A stretch of DNA of 64,000 bases from Escherichia virus TH38. This document shows positions 1 to 59,855 of the stretch, one piece after another. Positions within the stretch are counted from its first letter, which is position 1; each line of letters starts with the position of its first letter. Both the position numbers and the translations under genes were made by a program. The stretch lies in sequence record MT446410.1, one strand, 5' to 3'. Below the pieces are notes generated by a model. That model was not told the origin of the DNA. It saw only the letters and a list, made by a program, of their open reading frames with translations, and ran no database searches.

Positions 1-172
1 CCTAAGCCCCAAAATATTTAAAGTATATATTATATGGTATATTCATATGAATAGGGTGACACTGGCGCCATTATTGTGCAACCAAAAAAGACTACTCTGA
101 AAACGAGGAAAAGATTTTTTCCTGCCTGAATTAGATACGGAGTTAGCGATATGAAAACCGAACAACGTCATG
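1..172. repeat. Direct repeat copy A (171 bp, one indel near the end versus copy B); plasmid divergent-promoter region
   Basis: 1-166 identical to 3174-3339, then tcatg shared after a 1-nt indel; offset 3173 bp. Confidence 0.9.
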
Positions 173-321
173 ATCTTGTTAAAGATATTGAGGTTTTTGG
201 CGTATCCTTGTCTCTGTTGATTTCCAGAGCGAATGAGAAGTCTGTTACAATGCCATCTGGTCTAAGTCGGGAGCAGAGAAGAGCATGGGCAGCGGAGCAG
301 GCGCGCAAAATCCACAATTGA
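151..321 (+). CDS. Small ORF (56 aa) overlapping the start of the next ORF; possible antitoxin-like partner
   Basis: ATG at 151 with GGAG 8 nt upstream; 37-nt overlap with the 285-713 ORF in another frame; not in ORF track (<60 aa). Confidence 0.25.
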   Translation: MKTEQRHDLVKDIEVFGVSLSLLISRANEKSVTMPSGLSREQRRAWAAEQARKIHN

Positions 322-713
322 ATATTGTCTCATTCTCTGAGACCTTCAACCTTTATTACACATCCAGATATTCTGCAAAAACACTCGATAAAATCGATGA
401 TTTCATTGAGCATTTTGAAAAATACAATCTCTTTGGCGATCCTTTAAAAGGATATCCAGCTTGGACTGGCAAAGTATCGCCATCGTGGAAAGTGCCTGAT
501 CATTACGAAAACAAAGAAGCTATTGAGAAGTATGCTAGAGCTAACAAATTATGGCATGCTCATTTAGGCGATCCGGTTTTTAAAGATACGTTTCATGGGA
601 AATACAAGGTTTCTGACTGGGTTATTCATTTCCAGCGGCTGACACCGAACCATATAAAGCTTTTAGAGCTTGGATACCATGACCCAATGAAGCTACCTCA
701 AAACTTTGAATGA
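285..713 (+). CDS. Hypothetical protein, possibly a toxin-like (YafO-type?) plasmid protein; true start may be internal
   Basis: 142-aa ORF with a WHAHLGDP motif; operon-like overlap with the upstream small ORF; family assignment is a weak recollection. Confidence 0.3.
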   Translation: MGSGAGAQNPQLNIVSFSETFNLYYTSRYSAKTLDKIDDFIEHFEKYNLFGDPLKGYPAWTGKVSPSWKVPDHYENKEAIEKYARANKLWHAHLGDPVFKDTFHGKYKVSDWVIHFQRLTPNHIKLLELGYHDPMKLPQNFE

Positions 714-737
714 TCGAGCGGCAGGCTAAATGAAATC

Positions 738-766
738 TTGAGATTCATTCAGTCTCGTCGTAATCT
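738..766 (+). promoter_or_regulatory. RNA II (replication primer) promoter, -35 TTGAGA / 17 bp / -10 TAATCT
   Basis: Same architecture and near-identical sequence to the pMB1/ColE1 RNA II promoter. Confidence 0.6.
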
Positions 767-774
767 CACTATTG

Positions 775-1330
775 TAAAAACGAAAAAACCACCCTGGCAG
801 GTGGTTTTTCGAAGGTTAGTTAATCCTGGCAGATTCTCTAACCGTGGTAACAGTCTTGTGCGAGACATGTCACCAAATACTGTCCTTTCAGTGTAGCCTC
901 AGTTAGGCCGCCACTTCAAGAACTCTCGTTACATCTCTCGCACATCCTGCTTACCAGTGGCCGTTGCCAGTGGCGTTAAGTCGTGTCTTACCGGGTTGGA
1001 CTCAAGACGATAGTTACCGGATAAGGCGCAGCGGTCGGGCTGAACGGGGGGTTCGTGCACACAGCCCAGCTTGGAGCGAACGACCTACACCGAACCGAGA
1101 TACCAACAGCGTGAGCTATGAGAAAGCGCCACGCTTCCCGAAGGGAGAAAGGCGGACAGGTATCCGGTAAGCGGCAGGGTCGGAACAGGAGAGCGCACGA
1201 GGGAGCTTCCAGGGGGAAACGCCTGGTATCTTTATAGTCCTGTCGGGTTTCGCCACCTCTGACTTGAGCGTCGATTTTTGTGATGCTCGTCAGGGGGGCG
1301 GAGCCTATGGAAAAACGCCTCCCGCGCGCC
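775..1330 (+). ncRNA. RNA II pre-primer of ColE1-type origin; RNA-DNA switch expected near 1320-1330
   Basis: Long near-identical stretch to the pMB1/ColE1 ori (e.g. ccagtggcg...taagtcgtgtcttaccgggttggactcaagacgatagttaccggataaggcgcagcggtcgggctgaacggggggttcgtgcacacagcccagcttggagcgaacgacctacaccgaac). Confidence 0.8.
779..886 (-). ncRNA. RNA I antisense copy-number control RNA (approximate ends)
   Basis: Antisense to the RNA II 5' end; hairpin aaaaaaccaccctggcaggtggttttt corresponds to the RNA I terminator; loop sequences differ from pMB1. Confidence 0.6.
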
Positions 1331-1547
1331 CTTCTTCTGGGTCTTTGTCTTTTGCTCACATGTTCTTTCCGGTTTTATCCCCCGATTCTGTGGATAACCG
1401 TATTACCGCCTTTGAGTGAGCTGACACCGCTCGCCGCAGTCGAACGACCGAGCGTAGCGAGTCAGTGAGCGAGGAAGCGGAAGAGCGCCTTATGTGACAT
1501 TTTCTCCTTACGCTCCTCTATGCCGTTCTGCATCCTGTCCGGATGCG

Positions 1548-1742
1548 TTATATCCCGGTAAGATTTTCCGCTTCAAAGCGTGTCTGTATGCTGTTCTGGA
1601 GTTCTTCTGCGAGTTCGTGCAGTTTCTCACACATGGCGGCCTGTTCGTCGGCATTGAGTGCGTCCAGTTTTTCGAGCAGCGTCAGGCTCTGACTTTTTAT
1701 GAATCCCGCCATGTTGAGTACGGCTTGCTGCTGCTTATTCAT
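1548..1742 (-). CDS. rop: Rop/Rom RNA I-RNA II modulator protein
   Basis: 64 aa, MNKQQQAVLNMAGFIKSQSLTLLEKLDALNADEQ... closely matches ColE1 Rop; convergent with RNA II as in pBR322. Confidence 0.9.
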   Translation of the reverse strand: MNKQQQAVLNMAGFIKSQSLTLLEKLDALNADEQAAMCEKLHELAEELQNSIQTRFEAENLTGI

Positions 1743-2001
1743 CTTTTCGTTTTCTCCGTTCTGTCTGTCATCTGCGTTGTGTGATTATATCGCGTACCAC
1801 TTTTCGACTGTTTTGCTGCCGCTATTCTGCCGCTTGGCTTTTTGACGGGCATTTCTGTCAGACAACACTGTCACTGCCAAAAAACTGCCGTGCCTTTGTC
1901 GGTAATTCGAGCTTGCTGACAGGACAGGATGTGCAATTGTTATACCGCGCATACATGCACGCTATTACAATTGCCCTGGTCAGGGCTTTGCCCCGACACC
2001 C

Positions 2002-2349
2002 ATGTCAGATACGGAGCCATGTTTTATGACAAAACGAAGTGGAAGTAATACGCGCAGGCGGGCTATCAGTCGCCCTGTTCGTCTGACGGCAGAAGAAGAC
2101 CAGGAAATCAGAAAAAGGGCTGCTGAATGCGGCAAGACCGTTTCCGGTTTTTTACGGGCGGCAGCTCTCGGTAAGAAAGTTAACTCACTGACTGATGATC
2201 GGGTACTGAAAGAAGTTATGAGACTGGGGGCGTTACAGAAAAAACTCTTTATCGACGGCAAGCGTGTCGGGGACAGGGAGTATGCGGAGGTGCTGATCGC
2301 TATTACGGAGTATCACCGTGCCCTGTTATCCAGGCTTATGGCAGATTAG
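2002..2349 (+). CDS. MobC-like ribbon-helix-helix mobilization accessory protein (no relaxase gene seen)
   Basis: 115 aa; RLTAEEDQEIRKRAAECGKTVSGFLRAAALG resembles the MobC family motif. Confidence 0.45.
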   Translation: MSDTEPCFMTKRSGSNTRRRAISRPVRLTAEEDQEIRKRAAECGKTVSGFLRAAALGKKVNSLTDDRVLKEVMRLGALQKKLFIDGKRVGDREYAEVLIAITEYHRALLSRLMAD

Positions 2350-2569
2350 CTTCCCGGAGAGAAAACTGTCGAAAACTGACGGTATGAACACCGTAAGCTC
2401 CCAAAGTGATCACCATTCGCTTTCATGCATAGCTATGCAGCGAGCTGAAAACGATCCTGACGCATCCTTCCTGTTTTTCCGGGGTAAAACATCTCTTTTT
2501 GCGGTGTCTGCGTCAGAATCGCGTTCAGCGCGTTTCAGTGGTGCGTACAATTAAGGGATTATGGTAAAT
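2350..2569. promoter_or_regulatory. cer-like multimer resolution site; XerC/XerD core at 2540-2569
   Basis: Exact ColE1 cer core GGTGCGTACAA-TTAAGGGA-TTATGGTAAAT at 2540-2569; accessory region assumed upstream. Confidence 0.8.
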
Positions 2570-2737
2570 ATATGAGCTATGCGATAACTTTAACTGTGAA
2601 GCGATGAACCCATTACAGGCAAAGCCAATTACTCCTGACAGTGGTTTAGCCAGAAGCAGGGCTACCAAGACCAATGCAATAAGTAATATATCGTTTTGCT
2701 ATCGTGCATCGCTCGCGCTCAGTTCCATTGTGCTTTT

Positions 2738-3166
2738 TTAAGCTGTCGTTTTTCTTACGGTATATACCGGTTTTTTATGGCGTGGTTTCTTAACTTGTTC
2801 AGCTACTGATGGACCCATTGTATCTAGGTAGTCAACTAGCTTTGTTAGATCATAAATATTGCGACCACCATATCGGCGATCACTCTTCGATGTTGGTTTC
2901 TTGTCCAAGAGATTAGCTTTTTCAAGATCATTGATAGCTCTCTGAACAGTCCGTACAGAAACCCCCATACGTATGGCTAGACTTTCCATTGACGGATGCG
3001 GCCACTCTTGCAAACTCCACCAGTGAACGATCAGGTTAAGTAGTGTGTTAAAGGCCACTGAAGTTAGCTTTTTCTCGTTTTGTATAAAAAACAATACGGT
3101 AGGCACTGCTGTCCAGCCAAGAGACAAACCGCCAGCTTTCCATTTATTCTTAACGGAGTAAGTCAT
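2738..3166 (-). CDS. Winged-helix/HTH DNA-binding protein (plasmid-borne, function unknown)
   Basis: 142 aa; LAIRMGVSVRTVQRAINDLEKANLL HTH; start 8 bp from the repeat. Confidence 0.45.
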   Translation of the reverse strand: MTYSVKNKWKAGGLSLGWTAVPTVLFFIQNEKKLTSVAFNTLLNLIVHWWSLQEWPHPSMESLAIRMGVSVRTVQRAINDLEKANLLDKKPTSKSDRRYGGRNIYDLTKLVDYLDTMGPSVAEQVKKPRHKKPVYTVRKTTA

Positions 3167-3173
3167 TGATTTT

Positions 3174-3344
3174 CCTAAGCCCCAAAATATTTAAAGTATA
3201 TATTATATGGTATATTCATATGAATAGGGTGACACTGGCGCCATTATTGTGCAACCAAAAAAGACTACTCTGAAAACGAGGAAAAGATTTTTTCCTGCCT
3301 GAATTAGATACGGAGTTAGCGATATGAAAACCGAACAACTCATG
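3174..3344. repeat. Direct repeat copy B; plasmid/phage junction at about 3340-3345
   Basis: Identity with 1-172 ends at 3344, after which sequence is phage-like. Confidence 0.9.
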
Positions 3345-3557
3345 GTTGAGGTTCTGAAGACGCTCATTTCTGTCTTCAACTTGCATAATAAGATCATTAA
3401 GTGTTACTTTAACTTTCTCATTATACATCTCATCCACTCGGACTAGAGATTTATACATTCTCTCCCAGCTTGCTGCTTTGTTTCTGAGAACAATAAACCC
3501 TATAACGCTGATAGTTAAACAGCTTACAAAAAGGAATTTATATACCTCTAAAGTCAT
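3216..3557 (-). CDS. Junction-spanning chimeric ORF: about 71 N-terminal residues phage-encoded (TM helix + coiled coil), C-terminus read from the plasmid repeat
   Basis: ORF crosses the repeat boundary at about 3343; N-terminus FLFVSCLTISVIGFIVL is hydrophobic. Confidence 0.35.
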   Translation of the reverse strand: MTLEVYKFLFVSCLTISVIGFIVLRNKAASWERMYKSLVRVDEMYNEKVKVTLNDLIMQVEDRNERLQNLNHELFGFHIANSVSNSGRKKSFPRFQSSLFWLHNNGASVTLFI

Positions 3558-3756
3558 ATTATTTACCCTTTATCAGAGATTAAAAGTAATATTATTTAAG
3601 TAAGTTATATTTAGTAAACTTATTTTCTAAGAAATTTTCAAAGGGTCTATATACAGAGCATTACCCATAGTCCCAGAATACTACCATCTTTTTCAATAAA
3701 TTTACTAAGTGGTTGGTTTATAAAGGAATTTAGTTTGTCAAATCTGGCACTAGTGA

Positions 3757-4146
3757 TTATTCCCTAGAGCTATTATCGAACACTAAATCACCACAATACA
3801 TAGGATTGGCATACCATTTTGGCACCCCTTCGCTCTTACTCTGAAAGTAAGTCCCACTGTACAGCGGAACATAATTCTTCTTAAGGGCACGTTTAGCTAG
3901 CCGCTCGCTTTCTCCAATGGCTTTCTTAGTCATCGGATTTTTATCACGAATCAGCTTTACATAACGTTTATAAGGTTTCTCCTGTTTTAATAGTACCGGA
4001 ATCCACTCAAACTGGTTCTTTTGTCTTATCACCTGTTCAGCGGTCAGTTTTCGTTGGGCCATTCTATTTATTACGGTATCCGCAACTAGGGCTTTACATG
4101 CGGTTGGCTGATTCCCTGCCTCATAATAAATAGTCAATGTCAACAT
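3757..4146 (-). CDS. Cell wall hydrolase, SleB/CwlJ-like (Hydrolase_2 domain)
   Basis: YYEAGNQP...ALVADTVINR...QKNQFEW motif pattern. Confidence 0.5.
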   Translation of the reverse strand: MLTLTIYYEAGNQPTACKALVADTVINRMAQRKLTAEQVIRQKNQFEWIPVLLKQEKPYKRYVKLIRDKNPMTKKAIGESERLAKRALKKNYVPLYSGTYFQSKSEGVPKWYANPMYCGDLVFDNSSRE

Positions 4147-59124: not shown

Positions 59125-59321
59125 TAATAATAAACCTTACTGTTAACACAAAAAGCACCTTCACTATTCACGATAGCTTTTCCTAGTGTAACCTTATTAA
59201 GTCTAAAAGTAGATTTGTATTGATTTTTGACCCTACGTGCGTGCTCTCGAGTCTTAACAAAATCTACAGCTACTAACTCTCCAGTCGTGTTATCATGTAC
59301 ACGAACAATCCACTTTTTCAT
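59124..59321 (-). CDS. Small basic protein, tandem paralog 1 of 3 (C-terminal ...KVYY)
   Basis: As above. Confidence 0.5.
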   Translation of the reverse strand: MKKWIVRVHDNTTGELVAVDFVKTREHARRVKNQYKSTFRLNKVTLGKAIVNSEGAFCVNSKVYY

Positions 59322-59855
59322 TTACACACCTTTAGATGCAACTACACCTTCAGAGTTATTATAACGACCCTTCACTGCATAGGAGTGCTCCCCTGCATGA
59401 GAGTGCTCAAACATAACCATCTGACCAACACGCATACCAGCACGAACTCGTAAGCTATGATGCTTGGTTACGTTATGGAATTCAAATGTCAGCTTACTGC
59501 TATTAAACCCTGCGTCTGCCCACCCAGCGTGGAGATGGTTCAAACCACAACGAGCCATAGATGAACGCAGAACAAACAGACTTGAGATGTTATCTGGAAG
59601 ATTAAACTCCTCCATAGAGTGAGCCAAGAAGAACTGACCCGGAGTGATAACCAAACCCTCTTCAGGAATCTTTACTTCCTTCCACTGAAGATTCTCTTTC
59701 GCATCAATATCAACGATGCCATCAGCCTGTTCTTCAACAAGGATAGTATCACCAATACGGATATCCACACTAGCAGCGTTAACATACTTATGCTCCGCAT
59801 CCAGATAGCCATTGTCAATTACATCGTGCAGTTCAACACTTCCTAGTAAACTCAT
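59322..59855 (-). CDS. dCTP deaminase / dUTPase-superfamily enzyme
   Basis: ASVDIRIGD, ITPGQFFLA and RSSMARCGL...HAGWADAGF motifs. Confidence 0.55.
   Translation of the reverse strand: MSLLGSVELHDVIDNGYLDAEHKYVNAASVDIRIGDTILVEEQADGIVDIDAKENLQWKEVKIPEEGLVITPGQFFLAHSMEEFNLPDNISSLFVLRSSMARCGLNHLHAGWADAGFNSSKLTFEFHNVTKHHSLRVRAGMRVGQMVMFEHSHAGEHSYAVKGRYNNSEGVVASKGV

What the first reader, a model, noticed from the sequence alone, without database searches (positions are those of the whole stretch)
2540..2569. Exact ColE1 cer XerC/XerD core site
GGTGCGTACAATTAAGGGATTATGGTAAAT matches the cer core (XerC arm, 8-bp central region, XerD arm). It shows the plasmid module is a natural ColE1-type replicon with dimer resolution. 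It is also a potential Xer recombination site now sitting next to a phage genome.
Basis: partly seen in the sequence, partly recalled or inferred. Interest (0 to 1): 0.4.

Follow-up and report, generated by a model that had tools for sequence, protein, structure and literature searches.

The report
Known pMUT1 plasmid cer site
The 30-base motif is a real, exact copy of the ColE1 cer crossover site, but it belongs to the well-known Nissle 1917 plasmid pMUT1, present here unchanged and probably joined to a phage genome by assembly rather than by biology, so it is ordinary.

Summary
GGTGCGTACAATTAAGGGATTATGGTAAAT occurs once, exactly, at 2540-2569 (+), and the same 30-mer sits in ColE1 (NC_001371.1, 3909-3938).

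It is not a core-only remnant. The 190 bp upstream are homologous to the ColE1 accessory region (53% identity, z = 7, 0/1000 shuffles). An ARG-box palindrome, two T-tracts and a GC hairpin lie at the same distances from the core as in ColE1. Homology stops at the XerD arm.

Window 1-3339 is 100% identical to pMUT1, the 3173-bp cryptic ColE1-type plasmid of E. coli Nissle 1917, at 1.05 unit lengths. Its cer is already annotated in the literature.

Two differences from ColE1 cer stand out. The accessory arm belongs to a diverged lineage shared by hundreds of small NikA-type plasmids. The Pcer promoter that drives Rcd in ColE1 is not recognisable here.

From 3340 on, the window is a phiEco32-like Kuravirus. 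The junction is blunt, lies inside a small phage gene, and was found in no public collection searched. pMUT1 also turns up as a stray or mis-joined sequence in other assemblies. I judge the adjacency an assembly or library chimera (about 60%) rather than a true cointegrate (about 27%); the remainder covers minor rivals and causes I cannot name. Known element, low interest.

The parts
2540..2550 (+). XerC-binding arm of the cer core (GGTGCGTACAA)
   Evidence: Exact match to ColE1 3909-3919. The anatomy is as described in PMC5357621.
2551..2558 (+). 8-bp central (crossover) region, TTAAGGGA
   Evidence: Identical to ColE1. The 8-bp length separates cer-type sites from the 6-bp dif/psi type. This region varies among related plasmids.
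2559..2569 (+). XerD-binding arm (TTATGGTAAAT)
   Evidence: Exact match to ColE1. It is nearly invariant across 10 plasmids. Homology with ColE1 ends immediately after it (downstream control z = -1.25).
2350..2539 (+). Accessory region of cer: 190 bp of non-coding DNA between the nikA/mobA stop codon and the XerC arm; inferred platform for ArgR/PepA binding
   Evidence: 53% gapped identity to ColE1 3719-3908, z = 7.0, 0/1000 shuffles reach the observed score. The distal 165 nt alone give z = 4.8. Conserved blocks appear in the 10-plasmid alignment. No feature is annotated under it in any of the 60 plasmid records listed.
2426..2439 (+). ARG-box-like perfect palindrome TGCATAGCTATGCA (putative ArgR site)
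   Evidence: It aligns with ColE1 TGCATAGGTATTCA. Its centre lies 107.5 bp from the core, against 106.5 bp in ColE1. The half-site bases GCATA..AT.CA are invariant in 10 plasmids. Binding was not tested.
2474..2478 (+). T5 tract, the first of two phased T-tracts (DNA bending)
   Evidence: Centre 64 bp from the core in both the window and ColE1. The columns are conserved. The role in curvature is described in PMC2831885.
2496..2500 (+). T5 tract, the second phased T-tract, 22 bp from the first
   Evidence: Centre 42 bp from the core in both the window and ColE1. The TTTT columns are invariant.
2520..2535 (+). Small GC hairpin (CGCG-TTCAG-CGCG) followed by TTT, directly upstream of the XerC arm; corresponds to the 3' end of ColE1 Rcd
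   Evidence: Same distance from the core (14 bp) as ColE1 CGCGCTGAACGCG. The helix is predicted in the 8-sequence fold (columns 70-82), with little covariation.
780..881 (-). RNAI, antisense copy-number regulator of the ColE1-type replicon
   Evidence: Rfam RF00106, 80.3 bits (gathering score 47), E = 3.9e-13, full length.
872..1513 (+). ColE1-type origin / RNAII region
   Evidence: 90.3% identical to ColE1 740-1395 on the same strand, so ori and cer have the same relative orientation as in ColE1.
1548..1742 (-). rop/rom gene
   Evidence: Pfam Rop PF01815, E = 2e-30. Annotated as a Rop family protein in the pMUT1 record.
2026..2349 (+). nikA-like relaxase accessory gene (annotated 'MobA'), ending directly before the cer accessory region
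   Evidence: Pfam NikA-like PF21983, E = 2.8e-18. Protein WP_000166966.1 in the pMUT1 record.
2738..3166 (-). Helix-turn-helix protein gene of pMUT1, downstream of cer
   Evidence: Pfam HTH_36, E = 7e-9. Protein WP_000222531.1 in the pMUT1 record.
1..3173 (+). One complete unit of plasmid pMUT1
   Evidence: Exact rotation of NZ_MW240712.1: 2531 + 642 bp at 100% identity. 100% identity to more than 20 pMUT1 records.
3174..3339 (+). Second pass over the first 166 bp of the plasmid unit (wrap-around duplication), ending at the plasmid/phage junction
   Evidence: Direct repeat 1-166 = 3174-3339, 100% identical, spacing 3173. Its true length is hidden by the window's left edge.
3340..3557 (-). 5' portion of a small phage gene (homologue of phiEco32 phi32_116), cut by the junction
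   Evidence: The junction maps inside phi32_116 (record 68722-69018). The join is blunt, with no shared bases at the breakpoint.

Best explanation
The motif is the crossover core of the cer-type multimer-resolution site of pMUT1, the cryptic ColE1-type plasmid of E. coli Nissle 1917. One full unit plus 166 bp of that plasmid is present here, unchanged.

Inferred mechanism, from the ColE1 paradigm: when homologous recombination turns plasmid monomers into dimers, host ArgR binds the ARG-box palindrome (2426-2439). Host PepA binds the flanking accessory DNA (2350-2539), whose phased T-tracts help it bend. The two directly repeated sites wrap around each other into a defined synapse. XerC and XerD then bind the 11-bp arms, and XerC exchanges one pair of strands across the 8-bp central region. 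The Holliday junction is processed to give monomers, which preserves the number of segregating units and hence plasmid stability.

What is shown here: the sequence identity, the homology and register of the accessory landmarks, and the orientation relative to ori. What is inferred: protein binding and recombination.

Unlike ColE1, this site has no recognisable Pcer promoter, so an Rcd cell-division checkpoint is not expected.

The neighbouring Kuravirus sequence is most likely joined to the plasmid by a chimeric read or an assembly join, not in a replicating molecule. The site therefore has no role in the phage.
For: - The 30-mer is exact and unique in the window and identical to ColE1 3909-3938.
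- Window 1-3339 is 100% identical to pMUT1.
- PMC10859263 already lists 'Cer' as a pMUT1 element, placed between NikA and HTH exactly as here.
- The accessory region is homologous to ColE1's: 53% identity, z = 7.0, 0/1000 shuffles. The ARG box, T-tracts and hairpin lie 107.5/106.5, 64, 42 and 14 bp from the core in the window and ColE1.
- The same blocks are invariant across 10 diverse plasmids.
- RNAI and the ori place RNAII on the same strand as cer, the arrangement reported as invariant for ColE1-like plasmids (PMC2831885).
- The full 226-bp site recurs in 718 plasmid records at 80% coverage or more.
- For the chimera reading of the junction:
  - The junction falls inside a phage gene, 8.7 kb from phiEco32's physical end.
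  - The phage part is otherwise collinear with TH06.
  - The join is blunt.
  - The plasmid segment exceeds one unit, which a simple monomer insertion would not give.
  - The junction and the fused ORF are absent from all collections searched.
  - 100% pMUT1 appears as a stray contig in a Hymenobacter assembly.
  - More than one unit of pMUT1 is embedded in the Nissle 'chromosome' record NZ_CP007799.1 between genes flagged as partial.
  - MDA/long-read phage workflows give about 50-60% chimeric reads (10.1101/2025.11.01.684647).
Against: - No experiment on pMUT1 cer was found. The cited paper kept Cer in its minimal plasmids but did not test it.
- By my own count, the ARG box matches the E. 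coli consensus at fewer positions than ColE1's, so ArgR affinity could be lower.
- The accessory region is only 53% identical to the one whose protein contacts are known.
- For the chimera reading, I have no reads and cannot see the sequence to the left of position 1 or the last ~16 kb of the phage. A blunt join inside a small early gene is also what illegitimate recombination would produce.
- A de Bruijn assembler would not normally join plasmid and phage without real chimeric molecules in the library.
Confidence: 0.85

Rival explanations
1. The adjacency is real. A Kuravirus genome has captured at least 1.05 units of pMUT1, for example from a plasmid multimer, by illegitimate recombination into the phi32_116-like early gene. 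The cer site is then carried and packaged as part of a phage::plasmid cointegrate. In a pMUT1-bearing host it could in principle meet a resident cer.
For: The junction is a clean single breakpoint inside a small, probably dispensable early gene. The rest of the phage is intact and collinear. An extra 3.3 kb is only about 4% of a 77-kb genome. Plasmid-derived DNA does occur in lytic phage records: NBSal006 carries a truncated cer, seszw carries ColE1 ori sequence, and a region of Salmonella phage SE2 is homologous to a ColE1-like plasmid (PMC5935869).
Against: More than one plasmid unit is present, which is not what a monomer insertion gives. The window begins inside the plasmid, as expected for a terminal overhang on a contig. 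None of the 109 related phage records carries plasmid DNA at this position. The junction was not found in any collection. pMUT1 is a documented stray or mis-joined sequence elsewhere. Even if the cointegrate were real, the cer topological filter disfavours intermolecular events (PMC5357621).
Confidence: 0.27
2. The 30-mer is a core-only remnant: a Xer core without working accessory sequences, and so unable to resolve multimers with the correct directionality.
For: Ungapped identity of the upstream 100-200 bp to ColE1 is only 41-48%. True ColE1-type plasmids match the pMUT1 site only over the core plus about 22 bp by BLAST.
Against: Gapped alignment is significant (z = 7.0; distal part z = 4.8), whereas the downstream control is not. 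All landmarks are in register within 1 bp. The landmark blocks are invariant across 10 plasmids from five genera. The full-length site is maintained in hundreds of plasmids.
Confidence: 0.04
3. The plasmid segment is a laboratory construct, such as a pMUT1-based vector deliberately recombined into the phage for engineering.
For: Plasmid integration by recombination is a standard route to phage engineering, and pMUT1 derivatives are used as vectors in Nissle.
Against: The segment is 100% native pMUT1, with no marker, cargo or homology arm. There is no phage homology at the junction.
Confidence: 0.02

Closest known systems
cer of plasmid pMUT1 (E. coli Nissle 1917; NZ_MW240712.1 and many identical 3173-bp records)
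   Same: Everything. The window's plasmid unit is an exact rotation of pMUT1. The literature already annotates a Cer region between NikA and HTH (PMC10859263).
   Different: Nothing in the site itself. Only the context differs: 1.05 units abutting a Kuravirus genome in this sequence.
ColE1 cer (NC_001371.1, core 3909-3938): the experimentally defined XerCD/ArgR/PepA multimer-resolution site
   Same: Identical 30-bp core, including the 8-bp central region. The accessory region is homologous, with the ARG box, two T-tracts and a pre-core hairpin at the same distances. It has the same orientation relative to a 90%-identical ori.
   Different: The accessory region is only 53% identical. The ARG box differs at two positions (TGCATAGCTATGCA against TGCATAGGTATTCA). 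The Pcer hexamers TTGCAT-15-TAAAAT are replaced by TGCATA-15-GAAAAC, and no alternative promoter scores above 6/12, so the Rcd checkpoint is not supported. Downstream DNA is unrelated.
cer-like sites of small NikA-type ColE1-like plasmids (the pCERC7 group of Moran & Hall 2017, cited in PMC10859263), e.g. Salmonella pF18S017-3003 and C. rodentium NC_003114.1
   Same: The same accessory lineage at 74-100% identity over the whole site, with nikA directly upstream.
   Different: Several of the closest accessory relatives carry a different core (GGTGCGCGTAA-TGAGACG-TTATGGTAAAT, 7-bp centre). Core and accessory arm therefore have partly separate histories.
Chromosomal dif and pSC101 psi
   Same: XerC/XerD arms of the same family. 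From memory: dif is GGTGCGCATAA-TGTATA-TTATGTTAAAT.
   Different: dif and psi have 6-bp central regions. dif needs FtsK and no accessory DNA, and psi uses ArcA instead of ArgR (PMC5357621). The site here has an 8-bp centre and an ARG box.
Truncated cer-like fragment in Salmonella phage NBSal006 (Jerseyvirus)
   Same: A cer-family core plus proximal accessory DNA inside a lytic-phage record.
   Different: Only about 115 bp, no ARG box, a different core (7-bp centre), embedded among phage genes. In the window, by contrast, a whole intact plasmid is present.

Membership tests
ColE1-type cer / Xer plasmid multimer-resolution site | 30-bp core: 11-bp XerC arm, 8-bp central region, 11-bp XerD arm | tested here: met
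   Exact identity to the ColE1 core. Anatomy as in PMC5357621.
ColE1-type cer / Xer plasmid multimer-resolution site | About 180-190 bp of accessory DNA on the XerC side, homologous to that of cer | tested here: met
   A 190-bp non-coding stretch at 2350-2539. 53% identity, z = 7.0, 0/1000 shuffles; the downstream control is negative.
ColE1-type cer / Xer plasmid multimer-resolution site | Single ARG box about 100-110 bp upstream of the core | tested here: met
   The palindrome TGCATAGCTATGCA is centred 107.5 bp upstream, against 106.5 bp in ColE1. The half-site bases are invariant in 10 plasmids. This is sequence evidence only.
ColE1-type cer / Xer plasmid multimer-resolution site | Phased A/T tracts between the ARG box and the core | tested here: met
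   T5 tracts lie 64 and 42 bp from the core, at identical positions in ColE1. The columns are conserved. The feature is described in PMC2831885.
ColE1-type cer / Xer plasmid multimer-resolution site | Located on a ColE1-type replicon, in the same orientation as RNAII | tested here: met
   RNAI is on the - strand, so RNAII is on the + strand. Ori and cer are both + relative to ColE1. The rule is stated in PMC2831885.
ColE1-type cer / Xer plasmid multimer-resolution site | Recombination depends on XerC, XerD, ArgR and PepA, and is restricted to directly repeated sites on one molecule | not testable with these tools
   This needs in vivo or in vitro resolution assays. No experimental test of pMUT1 cer was found.
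ColE1 cer sensu stricto (with the Rcd checkpoint) | Pcer promoter (TTGCAT, 15-bp spacer, TAAAAT) driving the ~70-nt Rcd RNA | tested here: not met
   A custom scan recovers ColE1 Pcer at 8/12. The window's best score is 6/12, and the homologous hexamers are TGCATA/GAAAAC, which lack the -12 T and the -7 T. The stock scan was uninformative because it missed the ColE1 control. The 15-bp spacer is reported in PMC5935869. Rfam returned no family other than RNAI.
Plasmid pMUT1 | Full-length nucleotide identity to the 3173-bp reference | tested here: met
   100% over 3173 bp as a rotation of NZ_MW240712.1.
dif / psi-type Xer sites | 6-bp central region; FtsK dependence (dif) or ArcA dependence (psi) | tested here: not met
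   The central region is 8 bp, and an ARG box is present.
Phage or IMEX attP sites that exploit XerCD (CTXphi type) | A dif-like site belonging to the phage genome and used to integrate at chromosomal dif | tested here: not met
   The site lies wholly inside an intact plasmid unit. The phage is a lytic-type Kuravirus collinear with relatives, none of which matched the cer query. No second Xer site exists in the window.

The most novel reading that the evidence does not exclude
The sequence records a genuine Kuravirus::pMUT1 cointegrate: a virulent phiEco32-like phage that has taken up more than one unit of a complete, replication-proficient ColE1-type plasmid, with its ori, oriT accessory gene and cer, inside a small early gene. 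That would make a lytic phage a vehicle for whole-plasmid transfer. It would also place a functional Xer site on a phage genome, from which the plasmid could be released by homologous recombination across the duplicated plasmid DNA, or by cer x cer recombination if two sites are present.
Probability: 0.25. Interest if true: 0.5.

Novelty: already known. Interest (0 to 1): 0.1.

Why it matters
For the finding itself it matters little. cer is the textbook Xer plasmid-resolution site, and pMUT1's copy is already annotated.

There are three practical points:
1. The first 3339 bases of this window are a plasmid, not phage. They should be flagged before the record is used for phage gene catalogues, host prediction or therapy-safety screens, because a mobilisable plasmid module in a 'phage genome' would raise false alarms.
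2. The pMUT1-lineage cer shows that an identical core can sit on a strongly diverged accessory arm that has no recognisable Rcd promoter. That is a reminder that 'cer' annotations based on the core alone do not imply the whole ColE1 stability system.
3. If the junction proved real, it would be a rare documented case of a virulent phage carrying a whole small plasmid.

Tried and rejected
- **Stock promoter/terminator scan on the cer region.** It found nothing in the window, but it also missed ColE1's proven Pcer, whose spacer is 15 bp. I rejected it as uninformative and replaced it with a custom scan.
- **Consensus RNA fold of the Rcd-equivalent region in 8 plasmids.** The structure is weak (-10.4 kcal/mol), the covariation term is unfavourable (+1.98), and few changes are compensatory. 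This gives no support for a conserved RNA, and I did not pursue it.
- **Search for the source record or an independent copy of the plasmid/phage junction.** All of these were negative:
  - the junction 40-mer in viral, genome and metagenome contigs;
  - the fused ORF in the gene index;
  - the phage collection;
  - complete E. coli genomes.
- **Plasmid sequence in IMG/VR.** A pMUT1-specific 40-mer and the exact core both gave no match.
- **Literature on pMUT1 or Nissle with Kuravirus.** Nothing relevant was found.
- **Microhomology at the junction.** BLAST start points (3334) first suggested it. A direct comparison shows no shared base at the breakpoint, only a nearby out-of-register TCATG.
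- **Chance match.** Rejected: 0 expected.

Full report
**1. The observation**

The 30-mer GGTGCGTACAATTAAGGGATTATGGTAAAT is present exactly at window 2540-2569 on the + strand. It is the only match in the 64-kb window even at up to three mismatches, and none is expected by chance. A looser Xer-site pattern also finds only this site on either strand. I fetched the ColE1 reference plasmid (NC_001371.1). The same 30-mer is there at 3909-3938. 'Exact ColE1 cer core' is therefore correct. The published anatomy of cer is an 11-bp XerC arm, an 8-bp central region, an 11-bp XerD arm and about 180 bp of accessory DNA bound by ArgR and PepA (PMC5357621).

**2. What the surrounding DNA is**

Window 1-166 is repeated exactly at 3174-3339, with a spacing of 3173 bp. 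Window 1-3339 is 100% identical to more than twenty records of the 3173-bp plasmid pMUT1 of E. coli Nissle 1917. The first 3173 bases are an exact rotation of NZ_MW240712.1.

The module has these parts:
- RNAI (Rfam, 80 bits, 780-881, minus strand);
- an ori region 90% identical to ColE1's (872-1513);
- rop (1548-1742, minus strand; Pfam E = 2e-30);
- a NikA-like relaxase accessory gene (2026-2349);
- an HTH gene (2738-3166, minus strand).

The cer site sits between nikA and the HTH gene. [quoted passage not shown] The element is therefore already known.

**3. Complete site or core-only remnant?**

Without gaps, the upstream 100-200 bp are only 41-48% identical to ColE1. By BLAST, true ColE1-type plasmids match the pMUT1 site only over the core plus about 22 bp.

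A global alignment of the 190 bp between the nikA stop codon and the core nevertheless gives 53% identity. Its score lies 7.0 standard deviations above 1000 shuffles, and none of the shuffles reaches it. The distal 165 bp alone give z = 4.8. The 190 bp downstream of the core give z = -1.25.

The landmarks are in register within 1 bp:

| Landmark | Window | ColE1 | Distance of centre from core (window / ColE1) |
|---|---|---|---|
| ARG-box palindrome | TGCATAGCTATGCA | TGCATAGGTATTCA | 107.5 / 106.5 bp |
| First T5 tract | GTTTTTC | GTTTTTA | 64 / 64 bp |
| Second T5 tract | CTTTTTG | ATTTTTA | 42 / 42 bp |
| Pre-core GC hairpin | CGCGTTCAGCGCG | CGCGCTGAACGCG | 14 / 14 bp |

In an alignment of ten sites from Escherichia, Salmonella, Shigella and Klebsiella plasmids plus ColE1, these same blocks are the invariant columns. 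The site also has the same orientation as RNAII, the arrangement reported as invariant in ColE1-like plasmids (PMC2831885).

The site is therefore a full cer-type site. The remnant hypothesis is rejected.

**4. How it most likely works**

By analogy with ColE1 (inference, not shown here), ArgR binds the palindrome and PepA binds the flanking accessory DNA. Two directly repeated sites in a plasmid dimer interwrap. XerC and XerD bind the arms, and XerC exchanges strands across TTAAGGGA. The junction is then processed to yield monomers, which protects a randomly segregating high-copy plasmid from the dimer catastrophe (PMC5357621, PMC2831885, PMC4393325). Protein binding and recombination were not and cannot be tested here.

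**5. Differences from ColE1 cer**

(a) The accessory arm belongs to a diverged lineage. The whole 226-bp site recurs in 1815 plasmid records, 718 of them at 80% coverage or more. Most are small mobilisable plasmids with nikA upstream.

(b) Core and arm have partly separate histories. The closest accessory relatives, such as Salmonella pF18S017-3003 at 88%, carry a different core with a 7-bp centre. ColE1 and a Klebsiella plasmid, whose arms are distant, share the exact core. This fits cer being a module boundary, and homology with ColE1 stops exactly at the XerD arm.

(c) ColE1's Pcer promoter is not recognisable. My custom scan recovers it in ColE1 as TTGCAT-15-TAAAAT, and the 15-bp spacer is confirmed by PMC5935869. 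In the window the homologous hexamers are TGCATA and GAAAAC, and nothing scores above 6/12. The stock scan could not be used because it missed the ColE1 control. A consensus fold of the Rcd-equivalent region shows no supporting covariation. I therefore would not credit pMUT1 with the Rcd checkpoint.

**6. The phage next door**

From 3340 onward the window is a phiEco32-like Kuravirus, 97-98% identical to TH06 and 93-95% to phiEco32, SU10 and Paul. It is collinear with TH06 from 56451 down to 1 and then from 77678 to 72815, so it reads straight across TH06's record ends. About 16.4 kb of phage lies beyond the window.

The junction maps inside the small gene phi32_116, 8.7 kb from phiEco32's right end. 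It is a blunt join with no shared base at the breakpoint.

Neither the junction nor the fused ORF exists in the phage, viral-contig, genome, metagenome, E. coli or gene-index collections.

Several things favour an artefact:
- The plasmid segment is longer than one unit, which a monomer insertion would not give. It is what concatemeric or multimeric plasmid reads give.
- The window starts inside the plasmid, as a terminal overhang on a contig would.
- pMUT1 at 100% identity appears as a 3300-bp contig (3173 + 127) in a Hymenobacter assembly. The exact core also occurs on 11 other short contigs from implausible hosts.
- The Nissle 'chromosome' record NZ_CP007799.1 has pMUT2 and more than one unit of pMUT1 embedded between genes flagged 'partial in the middle of a contig'.
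- Amplification and long-read phage workflows produce about 50-60% chimeric reads (10.1101/2025.11.01.684647).

Against an artefact: a clean breakpoint in a dispensable-looking gene is also what illegitimate recombination gives, and plasmid fragments do occur in lytic-phage records (NBSal006 and seszw; SE2, per PMC5935869).

I put the chimera at about 60% and a real cointegrate at about 25-27%. In either case the single cer copy has no partner in the window. The cer topological filter also disfavours intermolecular events, so 'a Xer site next to a phage' has little functional consequence.

**7. Verdict**

The element is already known: it is the cer of pMUT1. Interest is low. The only lead worth a follow-up is the plasmid/phage junction, which needs the raw reads.

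Noticed in passing
window 1-166 and 3174-3339; junction at 3339/3340: The plasmid is present at 1.05 unit lengths (an exact 166-bp wrap-around) and then joins the phage bluntly, with no microhomology at the breakpoint. The left extent is hidden by the window edge. The join is probably an assembly or library chimera, but a real cointegrate is not excluded.
   Followed up: partly
window 3216-3557 (- strand): A 113-aa fused ORF: the first 72 codons belong to the phage phi32_116 homologue, and the remainder reads into pMUT1. The 3' ~74 nt of the phage gene are missing from this side of the junction. The exact protein is not in the public gene index.
   Followed up: yes
window 2420-2460: The ColE1 Pcer promoter (TTGCAT-15-TAAAAT) is replaced by TGCATA-15-GAAAAC in pMUT1 and its whole accessory lineage. 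The Rcd cell-division checkpoint is probably absent from these plasmids even though the recombination site is conserved.
   Followed up: partly
alignment A2 (window 2340-2579 with L007-L014 and L001): The cer family is mosaic at the core. Plasmids with the most similar accessory arm (88%) have a different XerC arm and a 7-bp centre. Plasmids with distant arms (ColE1, K. quasipneumoniae p4) share the exact 30-bp core. Homology with ColE1 ends exactly at the XerD arm.
   Followed up: partly
L015 2501-2615 (Salmonella phage NBSal006, NC_073196.1 27944-28058): This was the only phage (two accessions) among 50,697 records to match the 226-bp pMUT1 cer query. It is a Jerseyvirus with a truncated cer (core plus about 85 bp, no ARG box) lying between small phage genes. 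PMC5935869 notes a region in Jerseyvirus SE2 that is homologous to a ColE1-like plasmid.
   Followed up: partly
MZ375336.1 31563-32227 (Salmonella phage seszw); OR474059.1 26885-27470 (a lambda record): These phage records contain about 600 bp of ColE1-type origin sequence (91% to window 872-1513). That suggests vector or plasmid carry-over, or capture, in deposited phage genomes.
   Followed up: no
L024 (Hymenobacter wooponensis NZ_SRKZ01000017.1, 3300 bp); L016-L027: A contig 100% identical to pMUT1 (3173 + 127 bp overlap) sits in a Bacteroidota genome assembly. The exact cer core occurs on 12 short contigs from unrelated taxa such as Rhizobium, Bacillus and several MAGs. At least two have low k-mer coverage in their names, and the pattern suggests that small E. 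coli plasmids contaminate assemblies.
   Followed up: yes
L028 (NZ_CP007799.1 5197355-5209660): The RefSeq 'chromosome' of E. coli Nissle 1917 contains pMUT2 and more than one unit of pMUT1 between truncated yigZ and fadB. This is an assembly-level join of plasmids into a larger replicon.
   Followed up: partly
window 59137-59496: This stretch matches both ends of the TH06 record (a 360-bp terminal overlap), and the window reads straight through it. The phage part is therefore permuted relative to the ends of the TH06 record. phiEco32's physical ends likewise do not correspond to the plasmid junction.
   Followed up: partly
window 151-321 and 285-713 (+): Two pMUT1 ORFs (56 and 142 aa) have no Pfam match and are 'hypothetical' in all records. 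The first starts inside the duplicated 166 bp, so its first 5 codons plus one base recur at 3324-3339 and are fused to phage sequence.
   Followed up: no
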